This document shows, piece by piece, positions 744 through 40,006 of a stretch of DNA of 64,000 bases. The first letter of the stretch is position 1, and every line of letters begins with the position of its first letter. Source of the stretch: Naegleria gruberi (lineage: Eukaryota); assembly GCA_000004985.1 (NCBI GenBank), contig GG738857.1; one strand, 5' to 3'. Made by a program: the position numbers and the translations under genes. The notes under the pieces were generated by a model, which was not told the DNA's origin, searched no databases, and worked only from the letters and a program-made list of their open reading frames with translations.

Positions 744-1994
744 ATGTCTGCCGAACTTGTTTCGAATGGTGTTTTGAATCTATTCGAAACGTTAGCAAGC
801 AACTCAACAATAACAAACACAACACACGAATCTCTTGCCAGCACCTTTCCTCAATATTCCCAAAACGTTGGTTCGATTGTTGTATCATGTGTTTTCATCT
901 CATGCTATGCCATTGTTGTTGCCATCATGAGTGGTATTCTTATTCGATACAGGAAGGAAATGAAGAGAAACCAAATTCTAGTCTTCTTCTTGGTGTTTTG
1001 GTGCATAGGTCAACAAACTCTTGCATTGATTTTTCGACTTGCCTATAATGGGAGAGCCCTCTGGATAAACTTGACTTATTCAGACTATACCAAGATTGAA
1101 AATTTCAATCAATTACTAATTCCACTCTATGTATTCTCTGCCATAGAGAGTGTTGCTGTATATTTGCAGGGAGCTGTAATTATAGTCATTATTTGTTTCA
1201 TTTTGAATATCTTGTAAGTATTTTCTTCATTGATTCGAATATTTAATTTTGGAAATAGTTTGGACACAGCTCGTGTTGTTAACGCCATGACCCAAAAGGC
1301 CCACAAATTCATCAAATACTTCTTCAACATCATATCTACCCTATTCGCTGTCCTAATCTTCCTACTTGCCTTTGTCCACGTTGGAGTTGTCCTCGCCTCA
1401 AAAGTTGCCACAAATTTCAAAGCCAATGTCATTGCAATTCTCATCGTTATCTTTGTAATCTTTGCAGTTACAATCACGATTGAATCTATCATGTTTGTTT
1501 TTGTAGGAGTTCGTCTAATTCTCTTTGTACGAAAGAATTCTCTTGGAATTTCACAAGCTAGCTCAAATTTCCTTCAAAGACCAGAAGTCAAAATTGGAGC
1601 ATTGATTGTTGGCATGTTGATTAGTGCCTATTTTCAATTACTAGCTTCGATTGTTGCGATTATTACTACGAGTTTCAATCCAGTGTTGCATGTAATTGAT
1701 TATAGTTTGCAAGCTTTGGGAATTTTACTCTTTTCCATATTTGTACTATTAGTTTACAATCCACTAGTTTCGTATAACATGATGAATAATAAGAAGGATG
1801 GGAAAGTGATAGGAAATACTACAAGTGAAATGAAATCTGAAAGATCAACAAATAATTCGAAACGATCAAAAGGTCTTTCACAAATTCCAAATTCACCAAA
1901 ATCACCAGTGGTTGACATTGCTCTTGCTGATTGTGTTTCACCTTCTGCTACCACAACAACTTCTGTTGATCAATCTGTAGAAGAAGATAAATAA
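744..1994 (+). CDS. Putative seven-transmembrane receptor-like (GPCR-like) protein, 2 exons join(744..1213,1259..1994)
   Basis: The ATG at 744 is preceded by an A-rich leader. Two adjacent ORFs (744..1217 and 1230..1994) join in frame across a 45-nt GTAAGT...AAATAG intron (1214..1258, phase 2). The joined protein has about seven hydrophobic helices, an N-terminal segment with N-glycosylation sites (NSTITNTT) and an S/T-rich cytoplasmic tail. Confidence 0.55.
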
Positions 1995-2051: not shown

Positions 2052-5000
2052 TTAGGCATTGTAAATTTTCTCTAAACGATCAACAATTTCTTGAATATTA
2101 GGACGTGTAGAAGGAACGGGAGACCAACTTTGTCTAATTAATTCAGTCAAATCGAAAATTCTTTCGTACTCATCTGGAGAATCGAATTCCTTACACCATT
2201 CTTTGCATTCCTCCAAATCTGTGAATGGAATAATTGGTCTCAAATTATTTTCACAAATTCCCTTGTGAAGTTGATAGGAAGATTCAACATTGCTTGGTTC
2301 TTCTAATCTTAATTTTTGTAAAACTCGTGAGTTTCTACTCATGTATGGATCGGTACATTCGAATAGTACTTGCCAAATGATAATGGAGAAACTGTAAATG
2401 TCGATTGCTCTGGCATCTTCACCAAGTATATCGCTATTACTGGAAATCATTTCAGGACTTAAATAGTAACAGGTTCCTATTTGACTTGTGACAGAAGTTC
2501 TGTAATTGGATAACATCTTGCTGAGACCAAAATCACAAAGCTTACAAACTCCAAATCTGTCAATCAAAATATTGGCAGGTTTCAAATCTCTATGCAAAAT
2601 TGTTGGAGATAATGTATGAAGATAGAGAATTCCATTAGCAACATTTGTCAAAATTTCCAATTTTTGAGTGAGAGAATACTGAACTGATTGATTTTGCATT
2701 TCTGTTACTAAATTATCCAAACTCTTCTCCAAACACTCCATAGCAATGAATCTCTTTGTAGGACTCGAAGAAATTCCGTAAAATGTGATAATGTTCGGAT
2801 GTCTTAATTTCGAGAGAATGATAGCCTCCATGAGGAAATCCTTTTCAGAAATATTCATGTTGTTCATGTCAAATACCTTGACAGCAATAATGTTATTCTT
2901 CCAACGAGTTTGGAATACAGAACCAATTCCTCCTGAACCCAATCTCTTGATTGGTTTGTCCATGTTTAATTGTTCAATTGGAATAATGAATGAAGAATTG
3001 TCAGAGTTGTTAATGTCCATAAATTCAAAGGTTTCTCCAACTTCAGTTTGAGATAGTAATCTTTCGTCCAACATTTGATCCATTTCAATAATTTTCTTTT
3101 GCTTTCTATACTTGGAAAAGAAGATTACCATTGTTAACATGGAGAAACAAAGTAACAATAAAACAAATATACTAAATCCAACAATGGTTCCAATCAAAAC
3201 ACTGTTATGTTCACATTCCTTTCCAAAGCTATTACTGCATTGACAAATATCTGGAGCAACACACAAATTTCCATTGCATGCATCAGCTCCTGATTTTCCA
3301 AAGCAGGTGACCATTCTGCAATCTGTTCCAATATATCCATAGGAGCAGGAGCAAGTATCTGGTTTAAGACATGTTCCACTAGAATTGGAGCATACAGCCG
3401 AACTAGAACTTGAAATGCCAAAACAAACTGGATACTGACATTGATTTCCACTATATTGAGGGGGGCAAGAACAGGTATCACTATCTAAACATATTCCATT
3501 TCCGCTACATACTTTGGAATCCAAACTGGTCCACTCAAAACATTTTGGAATGCATCTAGTTTTCTCTGGATTAAGCACATAATTATTTTCACAGAATGGA
3601 ACTAGTTGTTTCACTACATTATTCAACGAGTCAGATACGAATATCTTTCCAGTATTATCCACAAATGATACGCCTTCTGGCTTTGAGAGAGGAACTTCCA
3701 CTGCTGTCAATGATGATTCAATAAGATAACTGGCAACAATATCGACAACATCAACTGTTCCGTTACCAGCCATTGAATAAATATATCTCTGGCCATTAAA
3801 ATTAAACACTCTTCGTAATCTTCCATTATTCTTATCACAAAAAACAAATTCTTCATAAGTTGGTGGAAGTAACATTATACATGTTGGTGAATTGATATCT
3901 GCATTGATGGCAAGACCATTATCTCCAGAAAATCCAATATTTCCAGTTCCACAAACTGTACTAATTGTTCCATCTTTGGAAGAAATCTTTCGAATTCTAT
4001 GATTGTTGGTATCGCTGAAATAGATATCTTCATTTAGGGGTGAAACTGCAATTCCAGATGGAAATGCCACAGTAGCACTTGTAGCTGGACCATTCTCTCC
4101 ATGGAATCCATAATCTCCAGTTCCTGCAATTGTACTAATAACTCCAGTCATTCCATCAATCTTTCTAATAATATTATTCAAATTATCTGTTATGTAAATG
4201 TTTCCACTTTTTGCTCTGACCATGCTTAGAGGAATAGCAGATGATTGATTGGCTGGAATATTATCACCAAAACCTCCAGAAATGGTTGTTAGTAAATCAT
4301 CCTTAATTGAGTACTTTCTAATCTTGTTATTCGACGTGTCAGCAATATAAATTACTCCATTTCTATAGTCCAATGCCTTTGGATATTTCAATTTGGCAGA
4401 TCTTCCTCGTGATGGTTCTGTTTCTTGAACATCATTGGCTCCACCAATAATCGTCTTGATTATTTTAGAATCTGCCCATCTTATTCTGCTATTGATAGTG
4501 TCAGCTATTGCGATTGGTTTTGGTAATGCACTAGCATACTGATTTTCGGATGAACTATCAGCAGTAGAAACAACAGAATATGGGTGAAAGAATTTTGCCA
4601 TTAATGGATCACCATTGTCACCACTGAAACCAGCTCCGAGTTGTGAGTCACCTGCAGTTACTGAGTACATCACTGGTCCATCACCATCACTAGTAAATCT
4701 CAATCTCTTAATTCGATTATTGTAAGTATCTGCTACATAAAATGCAAAACATTTATCACATCCGTGCACATCATGAGGTGTATTATAGTATCTACTATCA
4801 CTGCTTGCAACTCCCATTCCAGATATGCTAAGGATAGGGAAAATGGAAGATTCGTTCAGAGTGGCATTGAATTTGATAAATCTAATTCTGTGATTTAAAC
4901 TGTCAGCAAAGAGTATACCTTGTTGTTTTACAGGAATGTTAACTATGGTCATTCCTCTTGGCTAATTAATTATCAATTGATTGGTTGGAAAAAATTGTTT

Positions 5001-7044
5001 CATTTCAACTTACCTCATTCAACAGAGATTGTGTTGCATCATTAGAATTTCCATTATATCCAAATTGATCTGGAATACCAGCTAGTATTGTTATTACATT
5101 GGTTTCTAGATTGATTTTTTTGATGGCATGTCTTCCAGTTTCTGAAAATATTAAATATCTCGCTCCAGTGCTCGTCACATAATAAGCAAGACCAGTTGGT
5201 TTCTTCACATTCTTAACAATTACCTTGACATTATTAGTATTATCAATGAGCTTGATATTGTTATTGTATGTGTCAGATACGAAAATACCCATATCTGTGG
5301 CAACAATTCCCTCTGGCTGATTGTAGGTGACTGAGGAGGCATTCATATAAGTGGGCATTCTTGCAGTATTGTTAGGTCTCAAAGCATTTCCCACCACCAA
5401 TGATATTTGTCTTGCTTTTGAATAAATATTTTGGGAAACTCTGATAATGGCATCACTGTAAACTCCACTTTGTTCATTCAAAATGTAATATTCAATTGTG
5501 TCACCATTGACCACTCCAACACTAAGAGACATTGGTTTGGATGACAGGGAATAGTTTAAAGAAGAATCAATATAAGTGGAAGACTCCAAATTGACAAATC
5601 CAGGATTAAGAGTACGAACAGTTCGAGTTGTCAAATCATAATATCTAACTGCTCCAAAGTTTGATTCACTAATAAATAGTACCTTCTCCAATTTGTTTGT
5701 ATTCTCATTTAAATGATAATCGAAAGTAAGACCAGTTGGCTGTCTCAATGGGAACTTTATCCCTTTCATCCCATCCACTCTCGGTATTTGATCGCCATTT
5801 GAAAATACTGGAGAAATCATCTTGGTTTCCAAATTGAGAATTTTGATATTTTTCGAGTCTACCATTAAAACAGACTTTCCATCTGGAGAAATTATAAAAT
5901 TAGAAGAAAAAACAAAATGACAATCAAATGCTTGAGTTATTCCATCTTTGCATTCTTCTGCTGAGGAATCACTTTTTCCTGCCAGTATTTCCAGCTTTAC
6001 GGATCCATCTGTATTATTGATGGTCAACCTTTTCAATAAGCTCGAAGTATCAGTGAAATAAACCATATCCAATTCGTTCATAGTATAAGCTGATAAATAA
6101 GAGGGACAACTATAATCATATTCATCATCATAAGGACAAGTGGACATTGAAACTGGCAGAAGTGGAAATTCATGCCCATACATTGTTGTAATATTACCAT
6201 TCTGGAGAATCTTTCTGAACCTATTGGATCCCCTTTCTGAAATGTAAATCTCATTCTTGTCATTTAGTGAAATACTGTTAGGGGACAATAATGTTGAACT
6301 AATTGCAGGAAATTCGCTATCTAGATAAACTCCAGCACCTCCACAAATTCTATAAACAGTACCATTTTGAATCTTTCTCAGAATATTCAAATCCAGAACG
6401 ATAACATTCGCCTCTTCCACAGAATTCACCACTTTCGGATAAACAACCATATCACTCAATGAAAGGAATTTGATTTCACTTGCTGGAATCACATCTGGGG
6501 CCGCAAAATTCAAATTACCTGCCAGAATTCCAGCAATATGGTCAATAATTCCTGTCTTGGTTCGAATCCTCCTAACAGAAAACAAATCCACCAAATAAAT
6601 CACATCATACAAGTTTCCACTACTTTCGTCCTTTTCTGCAACCACATACAAATGATTCACAAATATAAACGTTGCATTTTTCACTGGTCCTCCATTTCCC
6701 TCAATACCTCTACCAGGAGATTCACTTCCTGTAATAAATTCCTGTTGTCCAGTTACAAAATCCAATTTAGCAATGACAACCTGATTCACGACATAATAAA
6801 ACGTATTTTCATATTGAACGGAAGGAGCTAACCCAACAAGTGAAAAGGTTTTTGTTTCTAATTTTGATGGGTAATCTAATTTTCCAATAATTGATTCTGC
6901 TTGATATTTAACTTGTGATTTTAAGAATCGGATAGTTTCGTTCAAATTACACGTCGAAAAGTGAGAGAAAATCATCAGAAGGCTGATGAATAAAAACATT
7001 CGGCATAGTGAGAATCGATTCTGCCGTAAACATTGTGTTGACAT
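2052..7044 (-). CDS. Receptor-type protein kinase with signal peptide, at least 9 NHL repeats, tenascin-type EGF repeats, one TM helix and a TKL-like Ser/Thr kinase domain. Exons complement(join(2052..4961,5014..7044))
   Basis: ORF 5005..7044 (signal peptide MFLFISLLMIFSHFSTC, NHL motifs such as IYISERGSNRFRKI) ends LLNE immediately before GTAAGT. A 52-nt intron (4962..5013, GTAAGT...AATTAG, phase 0) joins it in frame to ORF 2052..4952. That ORF has NHL repeats (IYIADTSNNKIRKY, IYFSDTNNHRIRKI), Cys-rich EGF repeats (CxCxxGYxGxxC), a TM segment (IVGFSIFVLLLLCFSMLTMVIFF) and a kinase domain (GSGGIGSV, IAVKVF, HRDLKPANILI, DFGLSK, SPEM). Confidence 0.75.
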
Positions 7045-9831: not shown

Positions 9832-12800
9832 TTATTTAATTTTCAAGAGTTTGGATTTCAAGAATTGAAGAGGTTGATCTGATTTGGCTCCTAACAATTC
9901 AAATTTAATCTTGACATCTCCTAAATATTCATCTTCTTGATGGAGAGATTCTGGTGAAGGAATGATTTCCTTCTTGATCTTGTAATATTTAGTTCCATTT
10001 TCAATTTCAGAGAAGGGAATGAAAATAAATCCAATAACCTCAGTTGTCAACATGTCTCTATCACTGACAGAGAATAATAATCCATGCCTTTGAATAATTT
10101 CAGAAACATTTCTAGAAGAAGTGAATTAATTTCCAATAGATTCAAATTGATAACTTACAATGTAAACGTTTCATTATTCCAACGAGGATTCAAATTCTTC
10201 TTGATAGTTTTGGTCTTGTAGGTTTTCTTCTTCTTTTTGGAAGTTAATCCCTTCTCATTTTCAATATTGTAAACCTTTACAAAACCATCACAAAGTCCAG
10301 AAATGGCATCCATGACAGGTAAATTCCTTGCTTCCACAATTTGAACTTTGAGTATCTTTGGAATTGGTGCTAAGAATTTAGTCAATTCGCCACCCATTTG
10401 CTTTCGTTGCAGTATTGGATTAATATGCCAAACCTTGCTAGAGTTATCATTGGAGAAGATGGACCTGATACTACAGAGGAACAAGTGAGAATTAATCTTG
10501 GATTGATTTTCACCTGCCTTGTAAGGAATTTGAGAAGCAGGAATTGTAAATCTAAATGCCTCACTCTTAGTTTCCATGTTGTAAACCTTGATGACAGCAT
10601 TAAGCTGAGACAATAATTCAATTACATCTTCAGGTGGAATTTCCTTCGAGTTAATCACAATATAAATCTTCAATAGAATGGAAAAGTGATAAACTGGAAT
10701 TGGCTCAGGTAACATGAAATCCTTGTTTCTTCTGAATGACAGACGAACCATAGATGGGCTCAATGCTTGAACCTTGCTATCATCAACAGAGTCGAGCATC
10801 ATGTAGCATTGAGTCTCATCATATTCTCCTTGCATTGGCCATTGTACTGATGTGGCAGTTGGCAAGGCTCTATCAATGAGAGCAGCAAACTTTGTACTGT
10901 CATCAGCAAGGTACTTTTCCACACTGCCAGATTTTGGCATTGAATTTGAGGAGCTCAGTACCTTGGTAACATCTCCCTTCCAATTATAACAAATTGCCTT
11001 CATTCTTACAATGGTATGATCGATAAGGTTTTTTGTTTTCTGGGCTTTTTTAGTTGTTCCAGCTGTGAGAGGACTCAAATCACTTCTAAATGGAACCTTT
11101 TTGGTTGTATCTTCCAATCTTACACCAAAGCAAATATATTGTGAAGGAGAAGGAATGGGAGCATGAGACAATCTTTCATTGGTCACTCTTTTATACTTGG
11201 AATCTCCCATTAGGAAGAGATCTGACAAGTAATAAACCCATGAATCATCTCTTTTAGTAACGGAGGAATGGTCTACATCTATTGGCATCCATTCACCAAC
11301 GTAGGAAAGTGACCACTCTTCCTTTTGCTTTCTTTCCATTTTGAAAGCCAACAGGTGTTTGTATCCCTCAAAGTCAGCCACCTCCTTTGGGCCATTGTTT
11401 TCATGATTTGAAATCTTGAAGATATCACATAAAGGAAGAGAGAATAATGGTTTTCTTGTAACTGGATCGATAACAAAAATGTTTCGAATAGTTTCATCCT
11501 CTTCCTTTTCGGCAACAGAGTTTCTTGGTAAATCATCTTCATCCTCAAACGTGACAGTTCTGTTATCCTCCCTAACCGCATGTTCTCGGTAGGAAACAAT
11601 ACAAAAGACAATTCCTGCCTTTTCCACCAATCGAGGAATGATTGCCATTGGATCGATTACGCCATCCAAAATTGGGCCTTCTCTTCTCAATTCCACATGT
11701 TGTTTCTTCAAGAAATAGGCTTCCTTATCAAATGTGAATACAGTGAGTTTAACAAGCAAGTCTGAAGGTTTACAAAGATGAGGATGACTAGCTCCTTGAA
11801 ATTGTAACATGATTGGGTGAGAATTTGAAAACTTGACAGGAAAATCATAAGTTGTAATCTCTTGTCCTTCCTGAACTACAGCAGATCTACAAAGGGAATC
11901 AGCTCCCTTATTGAAATGGTAGTGTCTTATGTGTCTCACAATTGTTGAAAAGCAAGTTTGTTTTGGTTTCTTCTCAACTGACATGTGCTCACCAAGGAAT
12001 TTCATCACAAAGGATTGGCCAGTGGCGTGTGAAACCTTCCCCCAGATGATGCAATTACTTGGATGAGGAGGCGTTGGGAAGTTTCTAATGTTAACTTCAT
12101 TGTTTGACTTGTCAATATAACTCAATCCAAACGAAGAATCAAAAAAGAGATAGCTTGAAATGTTATTCGAAGCAGTGTTGGTAAGGCCCATTCGAGGTAA
12201 TTCTGAATGTTCATATCCATCTCCGATCATTGATACGAAATAAATTTCATGAATATGTTTCAAGTTTTCCAGTTTGAGGTCAAAGTAATCGAACGATGAT
12301 TCGAATGAATTATTGTTTCCTACAACACCAACAGCCATGTGACTGGAAATTGTTGGCTCTCCAGAAACAGTATGGTTACTAAATCTCTTATCGTGACTCA
12401 CAACATCAACAACTCCTCCAACAGAATCCATCAAGACACAGAAATGATTAGTTCTAATTGGTCTTATTCCAATAGCTCTATTCTCCTCTGTTATTCTCAA
12501 CCTCAATTTTTCACTGTCCACAAATATGGAGTTGTTTGAACCTGCTGCCTTTGGAGGAGAATTACTTTTCACATCTCTAGTTTCAAGTACAATGTTATGA
12601 TTCTCTCTAATTGGCTCCAAAACTTTAGGTAAATGGAAAAGACAACTATCATTTGGTAGAGGGAATGGCTGACAAGATAGGGAAGAATTATTGATAGAGC
12701 TGAGAGGATCTGCTAAATCAACCTTGTACTCTTTTTTGAGTCTGTCATAGGATAAACTGAATAATGTTGTAATGGTATTGCTCTTATTCATTAGAGAGGG

Positions 12801-14507
12801 TTGATTCACTTCAATATTCAAGTTATGAATGAACTTGGAGGCTGAAACACGATAGGCATTCTCTTCATGAATTTCAGACTTGGTAAATACCATATCATTC
12901 TCAAAGGAGACTTGAATATCACCTTCCAAACAGTTCAGGTCACCTTCTAAGAAGAATATCAGTTTGGTATATTCGCCAAATGGGTTATCACTAAGATAGT
13001 TACTGATTCGCTTTGATTTAGCAACATCATATTTTGTTAACATGACCTTATCGATGGTTTTTTTACAAAATTTGAAATCTTCCTTCTGTACAACCTTTTC
13101 CTCTTCATCATCAGATTGCTTTTGAACTTTCGTTGTTGACATTGTAAAGCTATTCAATAAATTATTGAAATCTGCTGCATAGCCATGGGTAAGATTTTGG
13201 AAAATTCCACTAGATTGATAATTTGTTTCATCATTGGTTTTCCAATCTCTGACTTGGATATTGAATGATTGTTTCAATTTTTCATAGGCCATGTCATCCT
13301 TCACATTTCTTGTATGCATCTCATCTACAATATTTGATAGTTTTTGATGTTTCTTTTCTGGTTGTTTGTTTTCCTCCTCATCAGCATTGGATTTTCTGTT
13401 TGTTCTCAATACAAAACCTCCAATAGTGGTCTTTCCTGATGAAGAAGTTGTTGTTGAGTTAGCTGATGTACTGTTATTGAGTGATCTCATTCCTAAATAC
13501 TTTCTTTGGGAGGAATCAGATAGCAAATCATTCAATTGACATTCCAATGCAACAAGTGGTGTTTGAGTGGTTGTAAGTGCAGAGTTTGCTTTTGCAGATT
13601 TCTTTGATTTACGACCACCACTTTCTTCCACATTATTTACAACTGCTTGATCCAATTCCTCAACATTTTCCATTCCTTTAAGGTTTAGAATATTTTCAAC
13701 ACAAAGTAAACTCTTTGCTTGCTCCACCGTAATGATATCAACAAGTTTTCCTTCAGAATTCAAGACGAAACAACCAACAGAGAGTGGAATCTTTTCAGTT
13801 TCCTTCTTTGATGAACCAGTCTTGGAAACTTGCATAGAAAAGTATCTACCCATTCCTCCCTGCAATAAGGCATTCCTATTTCTTAACATTTCGAATGAGA
13901 ATTTTACCGAGAGAGCCGATGAAGTCAAATTATATTCATCCATATCAACTATTTGATCATTATTATACGAAACTGACATTCTATTATTCGCATTCTTGGC
14001 ACTATTAATCCACAAGGAAGATGATGGAATAGTCACCAAACTGGGAGAATCCTTCTTTCCAATTCTTGACAAATTTCTCTTTTTAATATTTGCAGAGTTA
14101 CTAGGTTTCAATTCGTGTGGTGTTGTATCATAAACACCACTATTCGAACCATTTCCAGAACCATTCGATCTATTACTTCTAGCCGAAAGAGGAGACTTGG
14201 CCAATCTGAAACTCTTTCTATTCTGCTCACTTCCTGGTGAATTTGGAGGTGGCATTCGAATCCTCATTGAAGAGGCACCATTTGGTGATCTTGGCGAAAC
14301 AGGAGGAGAACCTACACTCTGATCATCCTGCACGGCTCGAATATTTGCTGTAGAAGTTGCCTGTGTTGTATGATGATGATTATTTGTTGCTGGTGATGAC
14401 TGATTGGAACTATTACTAGATCCCGAGGTTGATAAATTGTCATCCTCGTTTGTATCTTCTCGATTGTTTGGTTGTTTGTTGGAGGAGAGAGAGGCAGGTC
14501 TACTCAT
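9832..14507 (-). CDS. Large (about 1540 aa) protein with an N-terminal S/N/T-rich low-complexity region and a C-terminal C2 domain. Exons complement(join(9832..10111,10159..14507))
   Basis: ORF 10155..14507 ends in the first half of a C2 domain (LKVQIVEARNLPVMD...KNLNPRWNNETFTL). The stop TAA overlaps a GTAAGT donor. A 47-nt intron (10112..10158, GTAAGT...TTCTAG, phase 2) joins it to ORF 9832..10053, which completes the C2 fold (NVSEIIQRHGLLFSVSDRDMLTTEVIGFIFIPFSEI...). Confidence 0.65.
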
Positions 14508-14710: not shown

Positions 14711-17699
14711 ATGGCCGATCACAAAATGGTCTGCAAATTGGGTTTGTGTTTTGAGATGCGAGATTTAAAATTATTTATTAAATGTGTGATGATTACAGGC
14801 TGATAGGAAATATGTGTTGGAAGCTGTTAAACAAAATGGGTTGGCACTTGAAAATGCCGATGAATCTGGAAGCTGTTAAACAAAATGGATTGGCAATTGA
14901 ATTTGCTGATTCATCATTAAAAAAGATAGAGAAATTGTATTGGAATCTGTTAAACAAAATGGATATGCATTTAAATATGCCGATGAGTTATTGAAAAAAG
15001 ATGAAGAGTTTATATTGGAAGTTGTTAAACAAGATGGATTGGCAATTAAACATGCTGATTCATCATTACAAAAAGATAGAGAAATTGTATTGGAAGCTGT
15101 TAAACAAAATGTATATGCACTTAAATATGCAGATTCATCATTGAAAAAAGATAGAGAAATTATATTGAAATCTGTTAAGAAAAATGGATTGACACTTGAA
15201 TTTACTGATTCATCATTGAAGAAAGATAGAGAAATTGTATCGGAAGCTGTTAAACAACATGGATTGGCAATTGAGTTTGCTGATTCATCATTTAAAAAAG
15301 ATAGAGAAATTGTATTGGAAGCTGTTAAGCAAAATGTGTATGCAATTGAATTTGCTGATTCATCATTGAAGAAAGATAGACAATTTGTACTAGAAGCTGT
15401 TACGAAAAATGGATTAGTACTTGAATATGCTGATTCATCATTGAAGAAAGATAGAGAATTTGTATTAGAATCTGTTACGAAAAATGGATATGCATTTCAA
15501 TATGCTGTTTCATCATTTAAAAAAGATAGAGAAATTGTATTGGAAGCTGTTAAACAAAATGGAGCAGCGCTTAAATATGCTGATGAATCAGTTAAGGGAG
15601 ACAGAGAAATTGTATTGGAAGCTGTTAAACAAAATGGATTGGCATTTAAATATATTTATTCATCATTGAAAAAAAATAGAGAAATTATATTGGAAGCTGT
15701 TAAACAAAATGGATCAGCACTTAAACATGCTGATTCATTTTTGAAGAAAGATAGAGAAATTGTATCGGAAGCTGTTAAACAAAATGGATTGGCACTTCAG
15801 TTTGCTGATTCATCATTTAAAAAAGATAGAGAAATTGTATTGGAATCTGTTAAAAAAAATGGATCAGCACTTGAATATGCTGATTCATCATTTAAAAAAG
15901 ATAGAGAATTTATTTATTTGCTATTTAAATTGAACAAAGAAAATGCAAGAAACTTCTCACCATCTATATCCAAAACCATTGAAGAATGCTTAAATATTCA
16001 GAGAAAGCTGTCAAGCAATATAACTGAACAATACTCCAAAATATTTATGGATGAAAAGGATTTATATTATGCTATTGAATTAACAAGTCTCTTTAATCCA
16101 ACACCAAAAGGTACAATATTCAATTTCAATTCTATCTATACACCAATATTTATTGAAAAATTGATTATTTTTCAAATATTGAAACAAATGAACCATTCAG
16201 AATTGTCTAATGATATTATTGCTCTTATTGATTTACAAAGTACCAAAGCTAACTATTATTTATATTGTTTCAGATTGGACAAATTTCTTGAAGATAATCC
16301 CTGTCAATCAACAAGAATGAAAGATTTGAAGAATATTGTGGAACAAGTTGCAACAAACTTTGAAACGTCATTTTATACAAAACAGGAAATTAATGAAATT
16401 ATGATTTTTGCCAACAAGTGGTTTGAAAATGAGCAAACATTTGAAAATTACAAACAAATAATTTGTAAATATAATGAGCTGAGAGGAGATTTATCAAAAG
16501 TATTCAAATCTCTTAATTATTTCTATAATTATTTCAAAAATGATTATGATTTCATTTCAGTATTAGGATATGGAGGTGAAGGTGTTGCATTCAAAGTATT
16601 TCATAAAAGTAGTAAATCATTAAGGGCTTTAAAATTGAAATATGACCCAGAGGAATCTGAAGAATCAACAAAAGAAACCATTAATTTATTGAAAAGAACA
16701 GACATTGAAGGAAAGATCAAATGTTTTGATTGTGAAATTATTCAAAATCATTTATATTCAGTGATGGAACTTGGAGAGGAATCATTATCAAATTACATTT
16801 CAAGAAATAATGAAAGTGAAATTTATAGAAATGGATTCATTATTAAGGAAAAACTAATTGAAATTCTTGATATATTTATCAAAGTATTGAACTCAGTTCA
16901 ATCAATTCATGATCACAATATTTTACACAGAGATTTAGATCCTCAAAATATTGTCAAAGTTCAAGATTTATACAAAATTATTGATTTTGAAACATCAAGA
17001 GTGATCAAGACAGGTAATTCAATTACAATTGCTCGTGGAAAGTTTGCATACATGTCTCCTGAAGTTTCACATGATAATTATTCTGATGATTTATTGAAAA
17101 GTGGTAATGATGAAAAGCTTGCTCACAATGTTGGACAAATTACCATTTCATGTGATATATTTTCATTGGGATGTATTTTGTTGAAATTATTAACCAATTG
17201 TCCTTTGCAACTATGTTCAACATTTCTGAATGATTCAGATGTCTCTAAATATAATGATAATTACTTGTATTTTAGTGGACATGGAAAATATTTCTATACA
17301 GTTGTGACAACAACAGAGGGAGAAATGAAATTACATTATGCAATTGAAAAACTAATCAATGAAACAATTAATCCAGATTTAGGAGTGAATAACATATTGA
17401 TTAGAAGCATTATTAGCATGATTCAAAGAGATTCATCAAAAAGATTGGATTGTTATTCTCACAAGTTAACAATTGAGAATATTTTGAAATTTTTGAAAGG
17501 AGAAATCAAAGATATCACTTTCAATATTGAAAAACAAGTTGGAGAATTGAAGAAAATATCACCATTAAGAAGTTACTCTCAACTTGTAGAGGAAAATACC
17601 AAACTATTAGAAAGAATTAAATTATTGGAAGAGAACTCTTTATTGGAACGAATTAAAATGTTGGAAGAGGAAATAATAAATCTAAAAACAGACCAATAA
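14711..17699 (+). CDS. DUF4116-repeat / atypical protein kinase / coiled-coil family, copy A. The 5' repeat region is disrupted; the main intact ORF is 14940..17699
   Basis: It shares the family 5' structure: ATG at 14711, GTTTGT donor at 14742 and a TTACAG acceptor before GCTGATAGG at 14799. The segment 14860-14935 is out of frame because of a 26-nt deletion plus a 1-nt loss in an A-run, giving three in-frame stops. The ORF from 14940 on has about 13 25-aa repeats (LEAVKQNGxALxYADSSLKKDREIV), a helical linker, a kinase domain (LGYGGEGVAFKV, HRDLDPQN, DFETSR, YMSPEV) and a C-terminal coiled coil (LLERIKMLEEEIINLKTDQ). Confidence 0.6.
14799..15903 (+). repeat. Tandem 75-bp coding repeat array (25-aa DUF4116-like repeats) of family copy A
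   Basis: Visible 75-nt periodicity (gctgttaaacaaaatgg...gattcatcattgaagaaagatagagaaattgtattggaa). Alternative sense frames stay open across the array, which produces spurious ORFs such as 15484..15669. Confidence 0.85.
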
Positions 17700-18392: not shown

Positions 18393-19865
18393 ATGCCAAG
18401 TTTCATCAAGAGATTATCGTTACGAAATTCATTTCAACAACGTCAATCCATTCACCAAGATCGTAGAAGAACGATCCGAGCCATTCCCTTCTTTCAAGAT
18501 TTTAAAATTGCCATCATTGGAGATGAATGTGTTGGAAAATCGAATATTGCAATGAGATGTGCTGGAAAGGAGACGTTTGTGCCAGAACATGAACCAACGA
18601 TTGAAGATGAGTATAATTGTAAGGTACAGTTTATGTTTAGGTTGCCAGCACCTTTGGTGGAAGAAATAGTTTCGAATGGTGGTGAAGGAGATTCGAATGA
18701 ATTAATGAGAAGTAATCCCAAAGGTGATATTTATGGATATAAACAATTGGCACATGATTTGGAATTAATACCAATGGAATTGAGAAATTATATGAAATTG
18801 GATAATACTTTGCTATCAATTATTCAACAAAAAAGAGAAAAGGAAGAGGAAATGAAAAAAGCACTTGAGGAGAAACAAAAGAAAATGTTTAGTTTATTCA
18901 AGAAGAAATCAACAACGAGTGATTCTCCACAAAAATCTTCTCATGAGCATGCTGGAAATAATCAATCAGGAGAGGATGGAGATTTTGGAAGAGTAATCAC
19001 TGAGGAAGAGGACATTGATGATTATGTGGATGAATTACTTTCGGATGTGGTTTATAATTTCGAGCAGGACATTATTTGTAGAGTGACCATTGTGGATACG
19101 AGTGGGAGATCGGAAGTGAGAAAGGAAGCAACTGATTTGTCTTCAGTGGATGGATACATGTTGGTTTTTGATATGAATAATAAGGCATCATTTGCCAAGA
19201 TTCAGAATTATATTGATGAGTGTAAATTTGCCTACTATGAAAATCCTGCAAGGAAACATTCGGATGCAGCTGCTTCACACAGTTCGAGTAGTGCTCGATT
19301 GTCCTCTGCAAGTAATAATAGTTCAGCAACAATGAATTCAACCTCCTCAGCAAGTGCTGCCTCTTCCAATGTAAATAGTTCTAAACCATCGACAATTGAT
19401 AATCCTCCAATGGTCCTTATAATGAGTAAATGCGATCAGAAACCATCAGCCCTCAAGACCATTAATGCAGAGTATGGCTATGCTCTTGGAGATACTCATC
19501 ATTTTCCATTCTTTGTCACTAGTGCATGTGAAAATTTGAATATCCAAGAAGCATTAGAAGGTCTCCTGAGTGAAATTATCAAGAAGAACATTGAGGAAGG
19601 AGTTTACGAAACTCAAAACAAATCAATGCCAACACCACTACCATCTGCTGATGAAACTTTAAGCAAGACCAATAGTAGAAACTTTAAATTTGAGAATCAA
19701 AATATCAGTATCAGTAGCAATGCCAGTGATTACACTCCTGAATTGTTAACGTTCAGTGTTGGAAATGGAGTTGTTCCACAGAGTCCTCCTGAGAAGAAGA
19801 TTGTTCGTCAGAGTGTCTCTGCAACTCTGAGAAAGTATGTCGTTCAACAATTTAAAAAGAAATAA
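18393..19865 (+). CDS. Ras-superfamily small GTPase-like protein with large insertions and non-canonical catalytic motifs
   Basis: G1 is IAIIGDECVGKS, switch I is PTIEDEY, G3 reads DTSGRSE (Arg where the catalytic Gln sits) and G4 reads SKCD instead of NKxD. There is a roughly 130-aa acidic/K-rich insert and an S/N/A-rich low-complexity segment. The ATG at 18393 is preceded by caaa. Confidence 0.6.
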   Translation: MPSFIKRLSLRNSFQQRQSIHQDRRRTIRAIPFFQDFKIAIIGDECVGKSNIAMRCAGKETFVPEHEPTIEDEYNCKVQFMFRLPAPLVEEIVSNGGEGDSNELMRSNPKGDIYGYKQLAHDLELIPMELRNYMKLDNTLLSIIQQKREKEEEMKKALEEKQKKMFSLFKKKSTTSDSPQKSSHEHAGNNQSGEDGDFGRVITEEEDIDDYVDELLSDVVYNFEQDIICRVTIVDTSGRSEVRKEATDLSSVDGYMLVFDMNNKASFAKIQNYIDECKFAYYENPARKHSDAAASHSSSSARLSSASNNSSATMNSTSSASAASSNVNSSKPSTIDNPPMVLIMSKCDQKPSALKTINAEYGYALGDTHHFPFFVTSACENLNIQEALEGLLSEIIKKNIEEGVYETQNKSMPTPLPSADETLSKTNSRNFKFENQNISISSNASDYTPELLTFSVGNGVVPQSPPEKKIVRQSVSATLRKYVVQQFKKK

Positions 19866-27871: not shown

Positions 27872-30574
27872 AATGTCTGAAGATTGGGTTTGTGTTTTGT
27901 GATGCGATTTTATTAATGGGGGTGTGATGACTATCACAAATAATAGGCCGATAGGACATATGTGTTAGAAGCTGTTAAACAACGTGGAAATGCACTTAAA
28001 TATGCCGATGAAGCATTTAAAAAAGATAGAGAAATTGTATTGGAGGCTGTTAAAAAAAACGGATTAATAATTCAATATGCTGATTCATCATTGAAAAGAG
28101 ATAGAGAAATTGTATTGGAAGCTGTTAAACAGCGTGGATATGCAATTCAATATGCTGATTCATTGTTAAAGAAAGATAGAGAAATTGTATTGGAATGTGT
28201 TAAACAAGATGGATTGGCACTTGAATATGTTGATTTATCATTACAAAAAGATAGAGAAATTGTGTTGGCAGCTGTTAAACAAAATGGATTGGCACTTCGA
28301 TATGCTGATTCATCATTGAAAAAAGATAGAGAAATTGCATTGGAATCTGTTAAACAACGTGGATATGCAATTCAATATGCTGATTCGTTGTTAAAGAAAG
28401 ATAGAGAAATTGTATTGGAAGCAGTTAAACAAGATGGATTGGCACTGCAATATGCTTATTTTCAAAATGACAGAGAAATTGTATTGGAAGCTGTTAAGCA
28501 AAATGGATCAGCAGTTGAATACGCTGATTCATCATTGAAAAAAGATAGAGAATTTATATTGGAATCTGTTAAACAACATGGATTGACTCTTAAATATGCT
28601 GATTCATTATTGAAGAAAGATAGAGAAGTTGTTTCGGAAGCTGTTAAACAAGATATATTGGCACTTAAATATGTTGATTCATCATTTAAAAGAGATAGAG
28701 AATTTATATTGGAAGCAGTTAAACAACATTCATTGGCACTTGAATATGCTGATTCATCTTTACAAAGAGATATCGTTTTTACTTATTCACTTTTTAAATT
28801 GAACAAAGAAAATGCAAGAAAGTTCTCACCCTCTATAACCAAAACCATTGAAGAATCCATTAATCTTCAGAGAAAGCTGTCAAGCAATATAATTGAACAA
28901 TACTCCAAAATATTTATGGATGAAAAGGATTTATATTATGCTATTGAATTAACAAGTCTCTTTAATCCAACACCAAAAGGTACAATATTCAATTTCAATT
29001 CTATCTATACACCAATATTTATTGAAAAATTGATTATTTTTCAAATATTGAAACAAATGAACCATTCAGAATTGTCTAATGATATTATTGCTCTTATTGA
29101 TTTACAAAGTACCAAAGCTAACTATTATTTATATTGTTTCAGATTGGACAAATTTCTTGAAGATAATCCCTGTCAATCAACAAGAATGAAAGATTTGAAG
29201 AATATTGTGGAACAAGTTGCAACAAACTTTGAAACGTCATTTTATACAAAACAGGAAATTAATGAAATTATGATTTTTGCCAACAAGTGGTTTGAAAATG
29301 AGTAAACATTTGAAAATTACAAACAAATAATTTGTAAATATAACGAGCTGAGAGGAGATTTATCAAAAGTATTCAAATCTCTCAATTATTTCTATAATTA
29401 TTTCAAAAATGATTATGATTTCATTTCAGTATTAGGATATGGAGGTGAAGGTGTTGCATTCAAAGTATTTCATAAAAGTAGTAAATCATTAAGGGCATTA
29501 AAATTAAAATATGACCCAGAGGAATCTGAAGAATCAACAAAAGAAACCATTAATTTATTGAACAGAACAGACATTGAAGGAAAGATCAAATGTTTTGATT
29601 GTGAAATTATTCAAAATCATTTATATTCAGTGATGGAACTTGGAGAGGAATCATTATCAAATTACATTTCAAGAAATAATGAAAGTGAAATTTATAGAAA
29701 TGGATTCATTAAGAAGGAAAAGTTGATTGAAATTCTTGAAATATTTATCAAAGTATTGAACTCAGTTCAATCAATTCATGATCACAATATTTTACACAGA
29801 GATTTAGATCCTCAAAATATTGTCAAAGTTCAAGATTTATACAAAATTATTGATTTTGAAACATCAAGAGTTATCAAGACAGGTAATTCAATTACAATAG
29901 CTCGTGGAAAGTTTGCATACATGTCTCCTGAAGTTTCACATGATAATTATTCTGATGATTTATTGAAAAGTGGTGATGATGAAAAACTTGCTCACAATGT
30001 TGGACAAATTACCATTTCATGTGATATATTTTCATTGGGATGTATTTTATTGAAATTATTAACAAATTGTCCATTACAACTATGTTCAACATTTGTTAAT
30101 GATTCAGATGTCTCAAAATATAATGACAAGTATCCATATTTTAGTGGTCATGGAAAATATTTCTATACAGTTGTAACAACAACAGAGGGAGAAATGAAAT
30201 TACATTATGCAATTGAAAAACTAATCAATGAAACGATTAATCCAGATTTAGGAGTGAATAACATATTAATTAGAAGCATTATTAGCATGATTCAAAGAGA
30301 TTCATCAAAAAGATTGGATTGTTATTCTCACAAGTTAACAATTGAGAATATTTTGAAATTTTTGAAAGGTGAAATCAAAGATATCACTTTGAATATTGAA
30401 AAACAAGTTGGAGAATTGAAGAAAATCTCACCATTAAGAAGTTACTCTCAACTTGCTGAAGAAAATAACAAAATTACAGATGAAAAAACCAAACTTTCGG
30501 ATGAAAATAGCAACCTGTTAGAAAGAATTAAAATGTTGGAAGAGGAAATAAGAAAACTCACACAAACCATATGA
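27872..30574 (+). pseudogene. DUF4116-repeat / atypical kinase / coiled-coil family, copy B, interrupted by an in-frame TAA at 29303..29305. Exon 1 is 27872..27886 and the intron is 27887..27945
   Basis: The micro-exon ATGTCTGAAGATTGG (MSEDW) is followed by a GTTTGT...AATAG intron and an exon 2 in frame from GCCGATAGG. ORFs 27962..29305 and 29558..30574 lie in one frame. They are separated only by a TAA where every other copy has CAA (ENE*TFENYKQ against ENEQTFENYKQ). There is also an in-frame deletion in one repeat (YAYFQNDREIV). Confidence 0.7.
27946..28790 (+). repeat. Tandem 75-bp coding repeat array of family copy B (about 11 repeats)
   Basis: Periodic LEAVKQxGxALxYADSSLKKDREIV units at nucleotide level. 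Confidence 0.85.
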
Positions 30575-38482: not shown

Positions 38483-40006
38483 ATGTGTGAACTTGCATTA
38501 CCAGAAGAGATTTTTCATCATCACATATTTCCATTCATCAATGGTGTTGATCTTCTCGCATCGTGTCGGTTAGTGTGCAGAGAGTGGAATTCAATTATTG
38601 GAGAAATTCCGCTCCGACTGATAACTGTCAATGAAACTTTGAAGGAAAAGCAGAAACAATTCTTTATTAATAATTGTGCAAAGGGAAAATTTAATCAAGT
38701 GGTGCAATTGAAAGGAAATTTTGGAAATATTTATAAAGTTTTGAATAGTTTGAAATCCTTGACATGTTTGGATTTAATTTTTGAAGGAGAGAAGGAGGAT
38801 GATTTCAAGTATTTGGCAAAATTAACCAAGTTGAAGGAATTTTCAATTAATTATTGTGATAGTGGCGATGTAATTTTGAAATATATTCATAATTTGAGTT
38901 TAACTCGGCTAGAATTGAAATCTACCAAATTGCGTCCACAAGAAGTTAAGATTATTGGAAAAATCACAACTTTAAAGAGTTTGAACCTCCACCACAACAA
39001 TATTGAAGATGAAGGTGTTGAATTTATATCCGATTTGAAATTAGAGAGCTTGGGATTGTGTAGATGTGCACTGACAAGCAAGTCAACATCTTTTCTGTGT
39101 AAAATTACTAGTTTGAAAAAACTTGATTTATCAGAAAATATTATTAACGATGAATGTGGCTTTTATTTGTCCATGTTGACAGATTTGGAAGAGTTGGATT
39201 TGCACGATAATTCCATAGAAGGGAAATGCTTTAAAGAATTCTCAAGTTTGAAAAAGTTGAAAACTTTAAAATTATGTCAGAACAGAATTTCACAAGAAGA
39301 GGCCATGATATATTTATCTCAAACAGTATCACTCAAAAGCTTAAATCTTTCCCAAAATAATATTGGCCAATCAAGTATTCATCTTTCCAATCTAACTAAT
39401 CTCAAAGAACTTGAATTGAATTTGTGTAAAATTACAAAAGGAGGTCTTTCCTTTTTTTCCAATTTAAAAAAGTTGGAGATTTTGAAAATAAGTCAAAATA
39501 GTCTTGGATATGACGATTTTGAAGAACTTTCTCATTTGGTTAGATTGAGAATTCTTTCAATCTTTGGATGTGGATTAGAAAAAAATTCCACCAATTTTAT
39601 TGGAAACATCAAAACACTTAGAAACTTGGAAATGTTTAGTAATAACATATACGATGCTGGCCTTGCTTCCCTTTCGGGTTTAGTAAATCTACAAATACTA
39701 AAATTAGATTCCACTAGAATTACCGATACTGGAATACAACATTTATCACAAATGAAAGAATTAGAAATTCTCAGGTTGAATTCAAATTCACTCGGAAATG
39801 AAACTTTAATCAAGCTGGCTCAATTTGAATTTAAAAAACTTACTGAATTGGAGATTTCCCATGCAAATATTGACAAGGACAGTATTTCAGTAATTTCTCA
39901 AATGAAATCATTGAAAATCATAAGAATGTTTGGAACAGGATATTCAAGAAATGATCTCATAGATTTGAAGAAGGCATGTCCACATCTAATAGTTTCAGTT
40001 CGATAA
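38483..40006 (+). CDS. F-box / leucine-rich-repeat protein (FBXL-like)
   Basis: N-terminal F-box-like motif LPEEIFHHHIFPFINGVDLLASCRLVCREWNSII, followed by at least 14 LRRs (LxxLxLxxNxI...). Clean ATG and stop. Confidence 0.75.
   Translation: MCELALPEEIFHHHIFPFINGVDLLASCRLVCREWNSIIGEIPLRLITVNETLKEKQKQFFINNCAKGKFNQVVQLKGNFGNIYKVLNSLKSLTCLDLIFEGEKEDDFKYLAKLTKLKEFSINYCDSGDVILKYIHNLSLTRLELKSTKLRPQEVKIIGKITTLKSLNLHHNNIEDEGVEFISDLKLESLGLCRCALTSKSTSFLCKITSLKKLDLSENIINDECGFYLSMLTDLEELDLHDNSIEGKCFKEFSSLKKLKTLKLCQNRISQEEAMIYLSQTVSLKSLNLSQNNIGQSSIHLSNLTNLKELELNLCKITKGGLSFFSNLKKLEILKISQNSLGYDDFEELSHLVRLRILSIFGCGLEKNSTNFIGNIKTLRNLEMFSNNIYDAGLASLSGLVNLQILKLDSTRITDTGIQHLSQMKELEILRLNSNSLGNETLIKLAQFEFKKLTELEISHANIDKDSISVISQMKSLKIIRMFGTGYSRNDLIDLKKACPHLIVSVR

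What the first reader, a model, noticed from the sequence alone, without database searches (positions are those of the whole stretch)
2052..7044. Giant receptor kinase combining at least nine NHL repeats, tenascin-type EGF repeats and an intracellular TKL-like kinase
The two-exon gene encodes a 1645-aa type-I membrane protein. Its teneurin-like NHL and EGF ectodomain is coupled directly to a Ser/Thr (HRDLKPAN / DFGLSK) kinase. This domain combination is unusual outside animals and choanoflagellates. It marks the organism as having sophisticated receptor-kinase signalling. The G-alpha, 7TM, Ras-like and LRR genes in the same window point the same way.
Basis: partly seen in the sequence, partly recalled or inferred. 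Interest (0 to 1): 0.5.

Follow-up and report, generated by a model that had tools for sequence, protein, structure and literature searches.

The report
Naegleria NHL–EGF receptor kinase gene
This is a real 1646-residue membrane receptor kinase gene of the amoeba Naegleria gruberi, with a large NHL-repeat sensor outside the cell and a Ser/Thr kinase inside; it is one of a small, unstudied Naegleria family, and the public annotation lists only its last 303 residues.

Summary
The order is signal-like N-terminus, about 18 NHL-type blades (12 found by HMM), three six-cysteine EGF-like repeats, one TM helix, a conserved juxtamembrane segment, and a kinase with all catalytic motifs intact. The kinase's best solved relatives are TKL kinases (CTR1, ZAK, TAK1, RIPK2, B-Raf).

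The window is Naegleria gruberi. There is no transcript evidence for the splice. It is supported because it rebuilds an NHL blade across the junction and because the protein is collinear with full-length paralogues: N. gruberi EFC45236.1 (1555 aa) and EFC39453.1 (1508 aa), and N. lovaniensis KAG2387484.1 (1239 aa).

It is not a teneurin or a tenascin. It has type I topology and no YD shell, FN-plug, FN3 or fibrinogen domain. The likely mechanism is a single-pass receptor Ser/Thr kinase with a β-propeller sensor, a functional analogue of mycobacterial PknD and of plant and Entamoeba receptor kinases. The ligand is unknown. Verdict: a new, mis-annotated member of a known kind; modest interest.

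The parts
2052..7044 (-). Whole coding region of the receptor kinase gene (1646 aa, two exons)
   Evidence: two long ORFs joined in frame; Pfam domains
5014..7044 (-). Exon 1, residues 1-677: signal-like N-terminus and the divergent N-terminal NHL-type blades
   Evidence: TEN_NHL match at 148-291; blades at 241-279, 423-470, 563-601, 609-645
4962..5013 (-). 52-nt intron, GTAAGT...TAG
   Evidence: Removing it restores the frame and rebuilds an NHL blade. Paralogue genes carry 50-60-nt introns of the same type at other positions.
2052..4961 (-). Exon 2, residues 678-1646 plus the TAA stop at 2052-2054
6949..7044 (-). Signal-peptide-like N-terminus (residues 1-32, MSTQCLRQNRFSLCRMFLFISLLMIFSHFSTC)
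   Evidence: Hydropathy; paralogues start with equivalent hydrophobic N-termini. Not tested with a signal-peptide predictor.
3603..6822 (-). NHL-repeat region (residues about 75-1130, interrupted by the intron): 12 blades found by HMM, about 18 inferred, possibly three six-bladed propellers
   Evidence: Pfam NHL 75.1 bits and TEN_NHL 48.1 bits; own blade HMM; motif list; 8 four-stranded blades in the AF2 model of exon 2; Foldseek top hits are NHL propellers
4872..5055 (-). NHL blade that spans the splice junction (residues 664-707, NGNSNDATQSLLNE|PRGMTIVNIPVKQQGILFADSLNHRIRFIK)
   Evidence: 49.5 bits, E 1.2e-17 against the protein's own blade HMM; LLNE|PRGM aligns with QLNSPTYL and QLNFPKYV of the paralogues
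3207..3593 (-). Cysteine-rich stalk: the C1134-C1147 pair plus three six-Cys EGF-like repeats (C1151-C1185, C1190-C1225, C1230-C1260)
   Evidence: Cys pattern C..C..C..CxC..G..C; EGF_2 22.3 vs cut-off 22.1, EGF_TEN 25.2 vs 65; cysteines invariant in the family alignment; paralogues pass EGF_2 and EGF_Teneurin
3117..3203 (-). Single transmembrane helix (residues 1264-1292)
   Evidence: Kyte-Doolittle mean up to 2.83; long helix in the AF2 model; followed by KYRKQKK (positive inside)
2958..3116 (-). Juxtamembrane segment (1293-1345) with family-conserved KKIIE.D / DERLL / SFxIP motifs
   Evidence: alignment with paralogues
2073..2957 (-). Protein kinase domain (1346-1640). Motifs: GSGGIG 1352, AVK 1370-1372, E1389, HRDLKPAN 1467, DFG 1487, SPE 1512; also the RPIIPF and W..P..RP C-lobe motifs.
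   Evidence: Pkinase 1.1e-43; motif positions; best PDB relatives are TKL kinases
2052..2963 (-). Extent of the only public gene model found for this locus (XP_002679619.1 / EFC46875.1, NAEGRDRAFT_32030, 303 aa, starts at internal Met1344)
   Evidence: P0122 is 100% identical to residues 1344-1646

Best explanation
One gene encodes a type I, single-pass receptor Ser/Thr kinase of Naegleria gruberi.

Shown:
- A cleavable-looking signal sequence is followed by about 1100 residues of NHL-type beta-propeller blades.
- The blades sit on a short stalk of three EGF-like repeats.
- One TM helix and a family-conserved juxtamembrane segment follow.
- The protein ends in a catalytically complete kinase that resembles TKL-group kinases.

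Inferred:
- The blades form about three six-bladed propellers.
- The propellers are the ligand- or contact-binding sensor on the cell surface.
- Binding changes the oligomeric state or geometry of the receptor, and the cytoplasmic kinases trans-autophosphorylate on the Ser/Thr-rich activation loop (SNYRTSVTSQIGT) and juxtamembrane segment.
- The signal then passes to cytoplasmic substrates, as in plant receptor kinases, TGF-beta receptors and bacterial PknD.
- The ligand is unknown. For a bacterivorous soil amoeba, prey or surface polymers, or contact with other cells, are the likeliest candidates.

The gene belongs to a small Naegleria paralogue family. The reference annotation truncates it to the kinase domain.
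For: - Gene model: canonical 52-nt intron that alone joins two very long ORFs lying in different frames.
- Junction: the splice rebuilds an NHL blade (49.5 bits) and aligns to the LNxP blade start of the paralogues.
- Collinearity: end-to-end with N. gruberi EFC45236.1 and EFC39453.1. Identity is 49-53% in the kinase, 37-45% in the EGF repeats, about 31% in the C-terminal NHL half and 20-24% in the N-terminal half.
- Same architecture in N. lovaniensis KAG2387484.1.
- Domains: Pfam Pkinase, NHL and TEN_NHL well above cut-off.
- NHL fold: the PDB sequence search gives BiTLP 1e-56, SOQ1 5e-26 and NHLRC2 3e-18. Foldseek on the AF2 model gives NHL propellers, including the PknD sensor 1rwl at 7e-12.
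- Topology: hydrophobic N-terminus, one TM helix, KYRKQKK on the C-terminal side, 13 N-x-S/T sequons and 30 cysteines in the ectodomain.
- Kinase: all catalytic motifs are present. The best solved relatives are CTR1 8e-32, ZAK, TNNI3K, TAK1, RIPK2 and B-Raf.
- Context: single-pass Ser/Thr/Tyr kinases with lineage-specific ectodomains are common in protists (PMC10463195). PknD is a receptor Ser/Thr kinase with a six-bladed beta-propeller sensor (PMC3322341).
Against: - No transcript evidence for the splice or for expression. A search of metagenome contigs for the spliced junction found nothing.
- The intron position is not shared with the two paralogue genes I could inspect.
- Structure models are weak: pLDDT 56.6 for exon 2 and 41.3 for exon 1. 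The number of propellers and their closure are therefore inferred.
- The signal peptide was not tested with a dedicated predictor.
- The TKL assignment rests on best hits and motifs, not a phylogeny.
- No ligand, substrate or phenotype is known for any family member, and I found no literature.
Confidence: 0.8

Rival explanations
1. Two separate genes: a secreted 679-aa NHL protein (7044..5005) and a second protein that starts at Met 4952 and carries the rest of the NHL region, the EGF repeats, the TM helix and the kinase.
For: Each ORF is open on its own and the second has an ATG nine bases after the proposed acceptor. There are no transcript data. The intron position is not conserved in the paralogues.
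Against: - The second protein would have about 580 residues of NHL and disulphide-rich EGF sequence ahead of its only TM helix with no signal peptide, which is topologically implausible.
- It would also start in the middle of an NHL blade.
- Splicing rebuilds that blade, and the paralogues are continuous through this point.
- The donor is a perfect GTAAGT placed two codons before the stop.
Confidence: 0.05
2. The public model is right: only a 303-aa soluble kinase (2052..2963) is made, and the upstream open frame is not coding.
For: XP_002679619.1 / EFC46875.1 is the only database protein found for this locus.
Against: - The frame stays open for 663 further codons upstream of that Met and 677 more in exon 1; chance is about 1e-32.
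- These codons encode Pfam NHL and EGF domains and a TM helix.
- They align with full-length annotated paralogues.
- The 303-aa model starts at an internal Met, eight residues before the glycine loop.
Confidence: 0.02
3. It is mainly an adhesion or phagocytosis molecule, teneurin-like in use: the NHL/EGF ectodomain mediates cell-cell, cell-substrate or cell-prey binding, and the kinase only modulates this.
For: - NHL propellers and EGF repeats mediate homophilic and heterophilic adhesion in teneurins (PMC13018210 introduction; titles and abstracts listed).
- The PknD sensor alone promotes adhesion to laminin and cell invasion (PMC3322341).
- The ectodomain makes up 75% of the protein.
Against: - The kinase is the best-conserved part of the family (49-53% identity against 20-31% for the NHL region).
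- It keeps every catalytic residue, which points to selection on signalling with faster-evolving recognition surfaces.
- This reading is not exclusive with the receptor-kinase reading.
Confidence: 0.13

Closest known systems
Naegleria paralogues: N. gruberi EFC45236.1 (NAEGRDRAFT_66846, 1555 aa), EFC39453.1 ('serine/threonine protein kinase', 1508 aa), EFC35529.1 (partial, 546 aa); N. lovaniensis KAG2387484.1 (1239 aa)
   Same: Same order of parts: signal sequence, NHL blades, CE..C module, EGF repeats, TM helix, KKII/DERLL/SFxIP juxtamembrane motifs and a TKL-like kinase with the RPxIPF...C..WC C-lobe segment. Collinear alignment; the kinase is 49-53% identical.
   Different: Three EGF repeats here against five in the two N. 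gruberi paralogues. The ectodomain is longer and its N-terminal half more divergent (20-24% identity). Intron positions differ. All are uncharacterised predicted proteins.
Mycobacterium tuberculosis PknD (receptor Ser/Thr kinase with NHL beta-propeller sensor, PDB 1RWI/1RWL)
   Same: An extracellular NHL-type six-bladed propeller is coupled through one TM helix to a cytoplasmic Hanks-type Ser/Thr kinase. The sensor is a Foldseek hit of the model (7e-12). Receptor logic as described in PMC3322341.
   Different: PknD is bacterial and has the reverse order (kinase N-terminal, sensor C-terminal), one propeller and no EGF stalk. Its kinase is not of the TKL group. It is an analogue, not a family member.
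Teneurins and bacterial teneurin-like proteins (BiTLP, PDB 9IFO/9PT5)
   Same: NHL repeats of the same Pfam type (TEN_NHL 48 bits). BiTLP is the best solved sequence relative of the NHL part (1e-56) and the top Foldseek hit. EGF repeats of similar type accompany the NHL domain in animal teneurins.
   Different: No YD/RHS shell, FN-plug, TTR or toxin domain (no Pfam match even at E <= 1). Type I rather than type II topology. Many propeller blades instead of one six-bladed propeller. It has a kinase, which teneurins lack.
Eukaryotic single-pass receptor Ser/Thr kinases: plant RLKs (for example the EGF-bearing wall-associated kinases), TGF-beta receptors, Entamoeba histolytica TMKs
   Same: Type I topology, modular lineage-specific ectodomain, and a TKL or TKL-related kinase. 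SOBIR1 and the TGF-beta receptor appear among the PDB hits. Protist TMK diversity is described in PMC10463195 and EhTMKs in PMC2880585 (abstract shown). The WAK comparison rests on my own knowledge.
   Different: None of these has an NHL propeller ectodomain. The kinase is not shown to be orthologous to any of these families.

Membership tests
Eukaryotic protein kinase superfamily (active Ser/Thr kinase) | Pkinase HMM above the curated cut-off | tested here: met
   150 bits against 31.7, residues 1348-1637
Eukaryotic protein kinase superfamily (active Ser/Thr kinase) | Catalytic motifs: GxGxxG, VAIK Lys, alphaC Glu, HRDLKxxN, DFG, APE-like | tested here: met
   GSGGIG 1352, AVK 1370-1372, E1389, HRDLKPAN 1467, DFG 1487, SPE 1512. 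HRDLKPAN is the Ser/Thr-type catalytic loop (established knowledge).
TKL (tyrosine-kinase-like) group | Closest to TKL reference kinases; groups with them in a kinome phylogeny | tested here: inconclusive
   Best PDB hits are TKL: CTR1 113 bits; ZAK, TNNI3K, TAK1, RIPK2 and B-Raf at 78-89 bits. A TK (Src-Abl ancestor) scores 96 bits. The RPxIP and CW-like C-lobe motifs are present. No phylogeny against a classified kinome was run.
NHL-repeat beta-propeller | NHL repeat HMM above cut-off, several copies | tested here: met
   NHL 75.1 bits against 20; TEN_NHL 48.1 against 27.1; 12 blades by own HMM
NHL-repeat beta-propeller | Blades close into six-bladed propellers | tested here: inconclusive
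   The AF2 model of residues 678-1300 shows 8 four-stranded blades, but mean pLDDT is 56.6. The exon-1 model has pLDDT 41.3. Foldseek matches to 250-aa six-bladed NHL propellers have TM about 0.55-0.6 normalised to the target. About 18 blades, hence 3 x 6, is an inference.
EGF-like domain | Six-cysteine pattern with CxC...G..C and an HMM match | tested here: met
   Three repeats with six Cys each; EGF_2 22.3 bits against 22.1, marginal; cysteines invariant in the family
Teneurin-type / tenascin-type EGF | Pfam EGF_TEN or EGF_Teneurin above cut-off | tested here: not met
   EGF_TEN 25.2 against 65; EGF_Teneurin 18.3 against 24.3 in this protein. Paralogues P0141 and P0144 do pass EGF_Teneurin at 27.5 and 34.3.
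Teneurin | Type II topology (N-terminus inside, ectodomain C-terminal) | tested here: not met
   Hydrophobic signal-like N-terminus, ectodomain first, TM at 1264-1292, kinase C-terminal
Teneurin | FN-plug, YD/RHS shell, ABD/Tox-GHH C-terminal domains | tested here: not met
   No such Pfam family at E <= 1. Definition taken from PMC13018210.
Tenascin | FN3 repeats and a C-terminal fibrinogen globe after the EGF repeats | tested here: not met
   No FN3 or fibrinogen_C match at E <= 1. The definition is from my own knowledge.
Type I single-pass membrane receptor | Cleavable signal peptide, one TM helix, positive-inside rule | tested here: inconclusive
   One TM helix and KYRKQKK after it; N-terminal hydrophobic stretch 11-29; paralogues alike. 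No signal-peptide predictor was available and there is no experimental topology.
Naegleria NHL-EGF-TM-kinase paralogue family | Collinear full-length alignment and shared juxtamembrane and kinase motifs | tested here: met
PknD-like bacterial receptor kinases | N-terminal kinase, TM helix, C-terminal single NHL propeller; bacterial Hanks kinase | tested here: not met
   The domain order is reversed and the kinase is closest to eukaryotic TKL kinases. The resemblance is structural and functional only.

The most novel reading that the evidence does not exclude
The Naegleria family is an independent, Heterolobosea-specific invention of a propeller-sensor receptor kinase. On this reading, an NHL(+EGF) surface module whose nearest sequence relatives are bacterial (Acidobacteria-type NHL proteins, BiTLP) was fused to a eukaryotic TKL kinase. 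It serves as a pattern- or contact-recognition receptor for bacterial prey or for other amoebae. That would make it convergent with PknD and with the bacterial-to-eukaryote history of teneurins.
Probability: 0.15. Interest if true: 0.55.

Novelty: new member of a known kind. Interest (0 to 1): 0.3.

Why it matters
Three modest reasons.

1. The reference N. gruberi annotation represents this 1646-aa receptor by a 303-aa kinase fragment. Kinome and receptor censuses based on that annotation will therefore misclassify it as a soluble kinase.

2. Naegleria has a small family of receptor Ser/Thr kinases whose sensor is a multi-propeller NHL array on an EGF stalk. I found no literature on this ectodomain–kinase pairing in eukaryotes. 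Its only well-studied counterpart is bacterial PknD.

3. The family is also present in N. lovaniensis, the closest non-pathogenic relative of N. fowleri (relationship from my own knowledge). Surface receptors of this kind are candidate sensors for prey, substrate or host contact. None of this changes current views of receptor-kinase evolution, where lineage-specific ectodomains on TKL-type kinases are already the rule in protists (PMC10463195).

Tried and rejected
- A full-length protein search returned only bacterial and environmental NHL proteins and missed the identical 303-aa model. All listed hits were long, so short models seem to be filtered out. Searching the C-terminal 518 aa found the public model and the paralogues.
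- Exact look-ups of the spliced protein, the 679-aa ORF and the 966-aa ORF found nothing in the collection.
- A search with exon 1 found no Naegleria model. Short fragment models cannot be excluded. Accession numbering leaves room for two models between EFC46875 and EFC46878.
I could not see how the reference genome annotates the ectodomain.
- The exhaustive representatives search was swamped by giant NHL/EGF repeat proteins. Only P0122 and P0278 carried the kinase, so it gave no architecture census.
This cuts the middle propeller. The exon-1 model is too poor to use.
- The afdb50 fold library was unavailable.
- Searching metagenome contigs for the spliced junction 29-mer gave nothing, which is uninformative.
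- Literature searches for Naegleria with NHL or receptor kinase gave nothing relevant. The protist TMK survey PMC10463195 does not mention Naegleria, NHL or EGF.
- Rejected: teneurin or tenascin membership, a two-gene reading, and the kinase-only model (see the rival explanations and membership tests).
- Horizontal transfer of the NHL module from bacteria was considered. It is not testable here beyond noting that the best hits are bacterial at about 30% identity.


Full report
**Source and gene model.**
The window is Naegleria gruberi. The 1450-aa ORF at 10158-14507 (−) is exactly EFC46878.1 / XP_002679622.1, NAEGRDRAFT_65316. The window is 27-37% GC, with long and mostly uninterrupted ORFs.

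The finding lies on the minus strand. ORF 7044..5005 (679 aa) and ORF 4952..2052 (966 aa) are in different frames. Between them lies GTAAGTTGAAATG…TTAATTAG at 5013..4962, 52 nt.

- The exon-1 frame stops two codons after the donor.
- The exon-2 frame opens right after the acceptor's TAG.
- The sites are therefore tightly constrained.
- Open frames of this length in 34% GC DNA are not chance: about 2e-32 and 5e-23.

**Evidence for the splice without RNA data.**
- A blade HMM built from the protein's own clear NHL repeats finds a full-length blade across the junction. It covers residues 664-707, NGNSNDATQSLLNE|PRGMTIVNIPVKQQGILFADSLNHRIRFIK, at 49.5 bits and E 1e-17.
- In an alignment with two full-length paralogues, LLNE|PRGM lines up with QLNSPTYL and QLNFPKYV, the LNxP start of a blade. 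The three proteins are collinear from the hydrophobic N-terminus to the C-terminus.
- Without splicing, the downstream protein would have about 580 residues of NHL and EGF sequence ahead of its only TM helix and no signal sequence.
- Paralogue genes recovered on metagenome contigs L001 and L002 carry short introns of 50-60 nt (GTATGT…TAG in L001). These sit at other positions, so intron position is not conserved but the intron type is.
- A search for the spliced junction in metagenome contigs found nothing, which says nothing either way.

**Domain anatomy.**

| Pfam family | Score | Curated cut-off |
|---|---|---|
| Pkinase | 150 bits | 31.7 |
| PK_Tyr_Ser-Thr | 133 bits | 23.1 |
| NHL | 75.1 bits | 20 |
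| TEN_NHL | 48.1 bits | 27.1 |
| EGF_2 | 22.3 bits | 22.1 |
| EGF_TEN | 25.2 bits | 65 |
| EGF_Teneurin | 18.3 bits | 24.3 |

- *N-terminus.* Residues 1-32 look like a signal peptide.
- *NHL region.* Twelve blades are strong by HMM between residues 241 and 1130. Motif spacing of about 50-65 residues and strand groups in the AlphaFold models suggest about 18. The models show 8 four-stranded blades in exon 2 and about 10 in exon 1. Eighteen blades would fit three six-bladed propellers.
- *Model quality.* The models are weak: pLDDT 56.6 for exon 2 and 41.3 for exon 1. The propeller count is therefore inference.
- *Fold matches.* Foldseek of the exon-2 model against the PDB returns NHL propellers. 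They are BiTLP 9ifo (8e-19), SOQ1, NHLRC2, the designed Pizza6 proteins, Thin, the PknD sensor 1rwl/1rwi (about 1e-11) and teneurins.
- *Sequence matches.* By sequence, the NHL part is closest to the Bacillus inaquosorum teneurin-like protein (9pt5, 1e-56). SOQ1 (5e-26) and NHLRC2 (3e-18) follow, and animal teneurin-2 is far behind at 8e-8.
- *Cysteine-rich stalk.* After the blades comes a conserved C…C pair. Three six-cysteine EGF-like repeats follow: C1151-C1185, C1190-C1225 and C1230-C1260. The paralogues have five repeats.
- *Membrane and juxtamembrane.* One TM helix spans 1264-1292 and is followed by KYRKQKK. The juxtamembrane segment carries the family-conserved motifs KKIIE.D, DERLL and SFxIP.
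- *Ectodomain composition.* It has 13 N-x-S/T sequons and 30 cysteines.

**Kinase.**
All catalytic elements are present: GSGGIG, AVK, the αC Glu, HRDLKPAN, DFG, SPE, and the conserved Asp and Arg of the C-lobe. The catalytic loop is of the Ser/Thr type.

The best solved relatives are TKL-group kinases:
- CTR1: 8e-32
- ZAK/MLT, TNNI3K, TAK1, RIPK2/3/4 and B-Raf: lower scores
- tyrosine kinases and plant SOBIR1: close behind

'TKL-like' is therefore reasonable. It is not proven by phylogeny.

**Family and annotation.**
The only public protein found for this locus is EFC46875.1 / XP_002679619.1 (NAEGRDRAFT_32030). It is 303 aa, 100% identical to residues 1344-1646, and starts at an internal Met eight residues before the glycine loop. 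Neither the spliced protein nor either long ORF is in the 15-billion-protein collection. No Naegleria model matching exon 1 was found, although short fragments could have been missed.

| Protein | Species | Length | Source calls |
|---|---|---|---|
| EFC45236.1 | N. gruberi | 1555 aa | 32, 33, 69 |
| EFC39453.1 ('serine/threonine protein kinase') | N. gruberi | 1508 aa | 32, 33, 69 |
| EFC35529.1 (fragment) | N. gruberi | 546 aa | 38, 69 |
| KAG2387484.1 | N. lovaniensis | 1239 aa | 37, 38, 69 |

The first, second and fourth are full-length proteins with the same architecture.

Identity to the window protein falls from the kinase outwards:
- kinase: 49-53%
- EGF repeats: 37-45%
- C-terminal NHL half: about 31%
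- N-terminal NHL half: 20-24%

This gradient fits a conserved signalling module with a faster-evolving recognition surface. NHL followed by EGF without a kinase occurs in several unnamed environmental proteins.

**How it most likely works.**
- *Shown:* one gene, the domain order, an intact catalytic site, and membership of a Naegleria paralogue family.
- *Inferred:* type I topology with the propeller array and EGF stalk outside the cell. A ligand or contact is sensed by the propeller faces. A change in oligomeric state leads to trans-autophosphorylation of the Ser/Thr-rich activation loop and juxtamembrane segment, and then to phosphorylation of cytoplasmic targets.

This is the general logic of plant RLKs, TGF-β receptors and Entamoeba TMKs. 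Bacterial PknD uses the same sensor fold (PMC3322341; PMC10463195). The ligand is unknown.

**Comparison with known families.**
It is not a teneurin: the topology is wrong, and there is no YD shell, FN-plug or toxin domain. It is not a tenascin: there is no FN3 or fibrinogen domain. It works like PknD, but the domain order is reversed and the kinase is a eukaryotic TKL-like one.

Those lineages have NHL+EGF in teneurins, but without a kinase.

The neighbouring signalling genes are real:
- G-alpha: 49494-50723
- Ras-like: 18393-19862 and 44236-45744
- F-box/LRR: 38483-40003
- 7-TM-like: 744-1994

Co-location is not functional evidence in a eukaryote.

**Verdict.**
The gene is real and correctly delineated, and the model improves on the reference annotation. 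It is a further member of an uncharacterised but already deposited Naegleria receptor-kinase family, within the well-known class of single-pass receptor Ser/Thr kinases. Interest is modest (0.3). I found no literature on the family.

Noticed in passing
window 14940-17696 (+), 27962-30571 (+), 46004-48037 (-), 50961-54431 (-), 61469-62806 (-): Five genes in the 64-kb window carry very similar kinase domains: each matches Pfam Pkinase over profile positions 1-196 or 61-196 at about 70-86 bits. Four of them combine many DUF4116 repeats (up to 17 stretches, 1052 bits) with the kinase; no DUF4116 match was seen in the fifth (61469-62806). This looks like a locally duplicated, Naegleria-expanded kinase family.
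   Followed up: partly
window 2052-2963 (-): The reference annotation (XP_002679619.1, 303 aa) covers only the kinase domain of the 1646-aa receptor. The ectodomain, TM helix and juxtamembrane region appear to be unannotated.
   Followed up: yes
window 33084-38144 (-): A 1687-aa ORF whose only Pfam match is a single F5/8 type C (discoidin) domain (72.9 bits). It is another giant, possibly surface, protein, and its exact sequence is not in the protein collection.
   Followed up: no
window 744-1994 (+): Two ORFs are separated by a probable short intron (GTAAGT...AATAG around 1215-1255). Together they have 3 + 4 hydrophobic segments, so this is a 7-TM-like protein with no Pfam match. It converges on the receptor kinase gene with only about 57 bp between the stop codons.
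   Followed up: partly
L001 920-969 and about 2848-2872; L002 about 4060-4115: Metagenome contigs (ERZ929261) carry 96-99% identical copies of the N. gruberi paralogues EFC45236.1 and EFC39453.1. They show that those genes have 50-60-nt introns. One falls right after MDKPIK at the start of the kinase domain, the same Met at which the truncated public model of the window gene begins.
   Followed up: partly
It is therefore an SCF-type substrate adaptor rather than a receptor.
   Followed up: partly
P0127 (N. lovaniensis KAG2378398.1): The next-closest Naegleria kinase outside the family (42% identity in the kinase) has an ectodomain of Chlamydia-PMP / beta-helix repeats. This suggests that the same TKL-like kinase has been combined with different bacterial-type surface repeats in Naegleria.
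   Followed up: no
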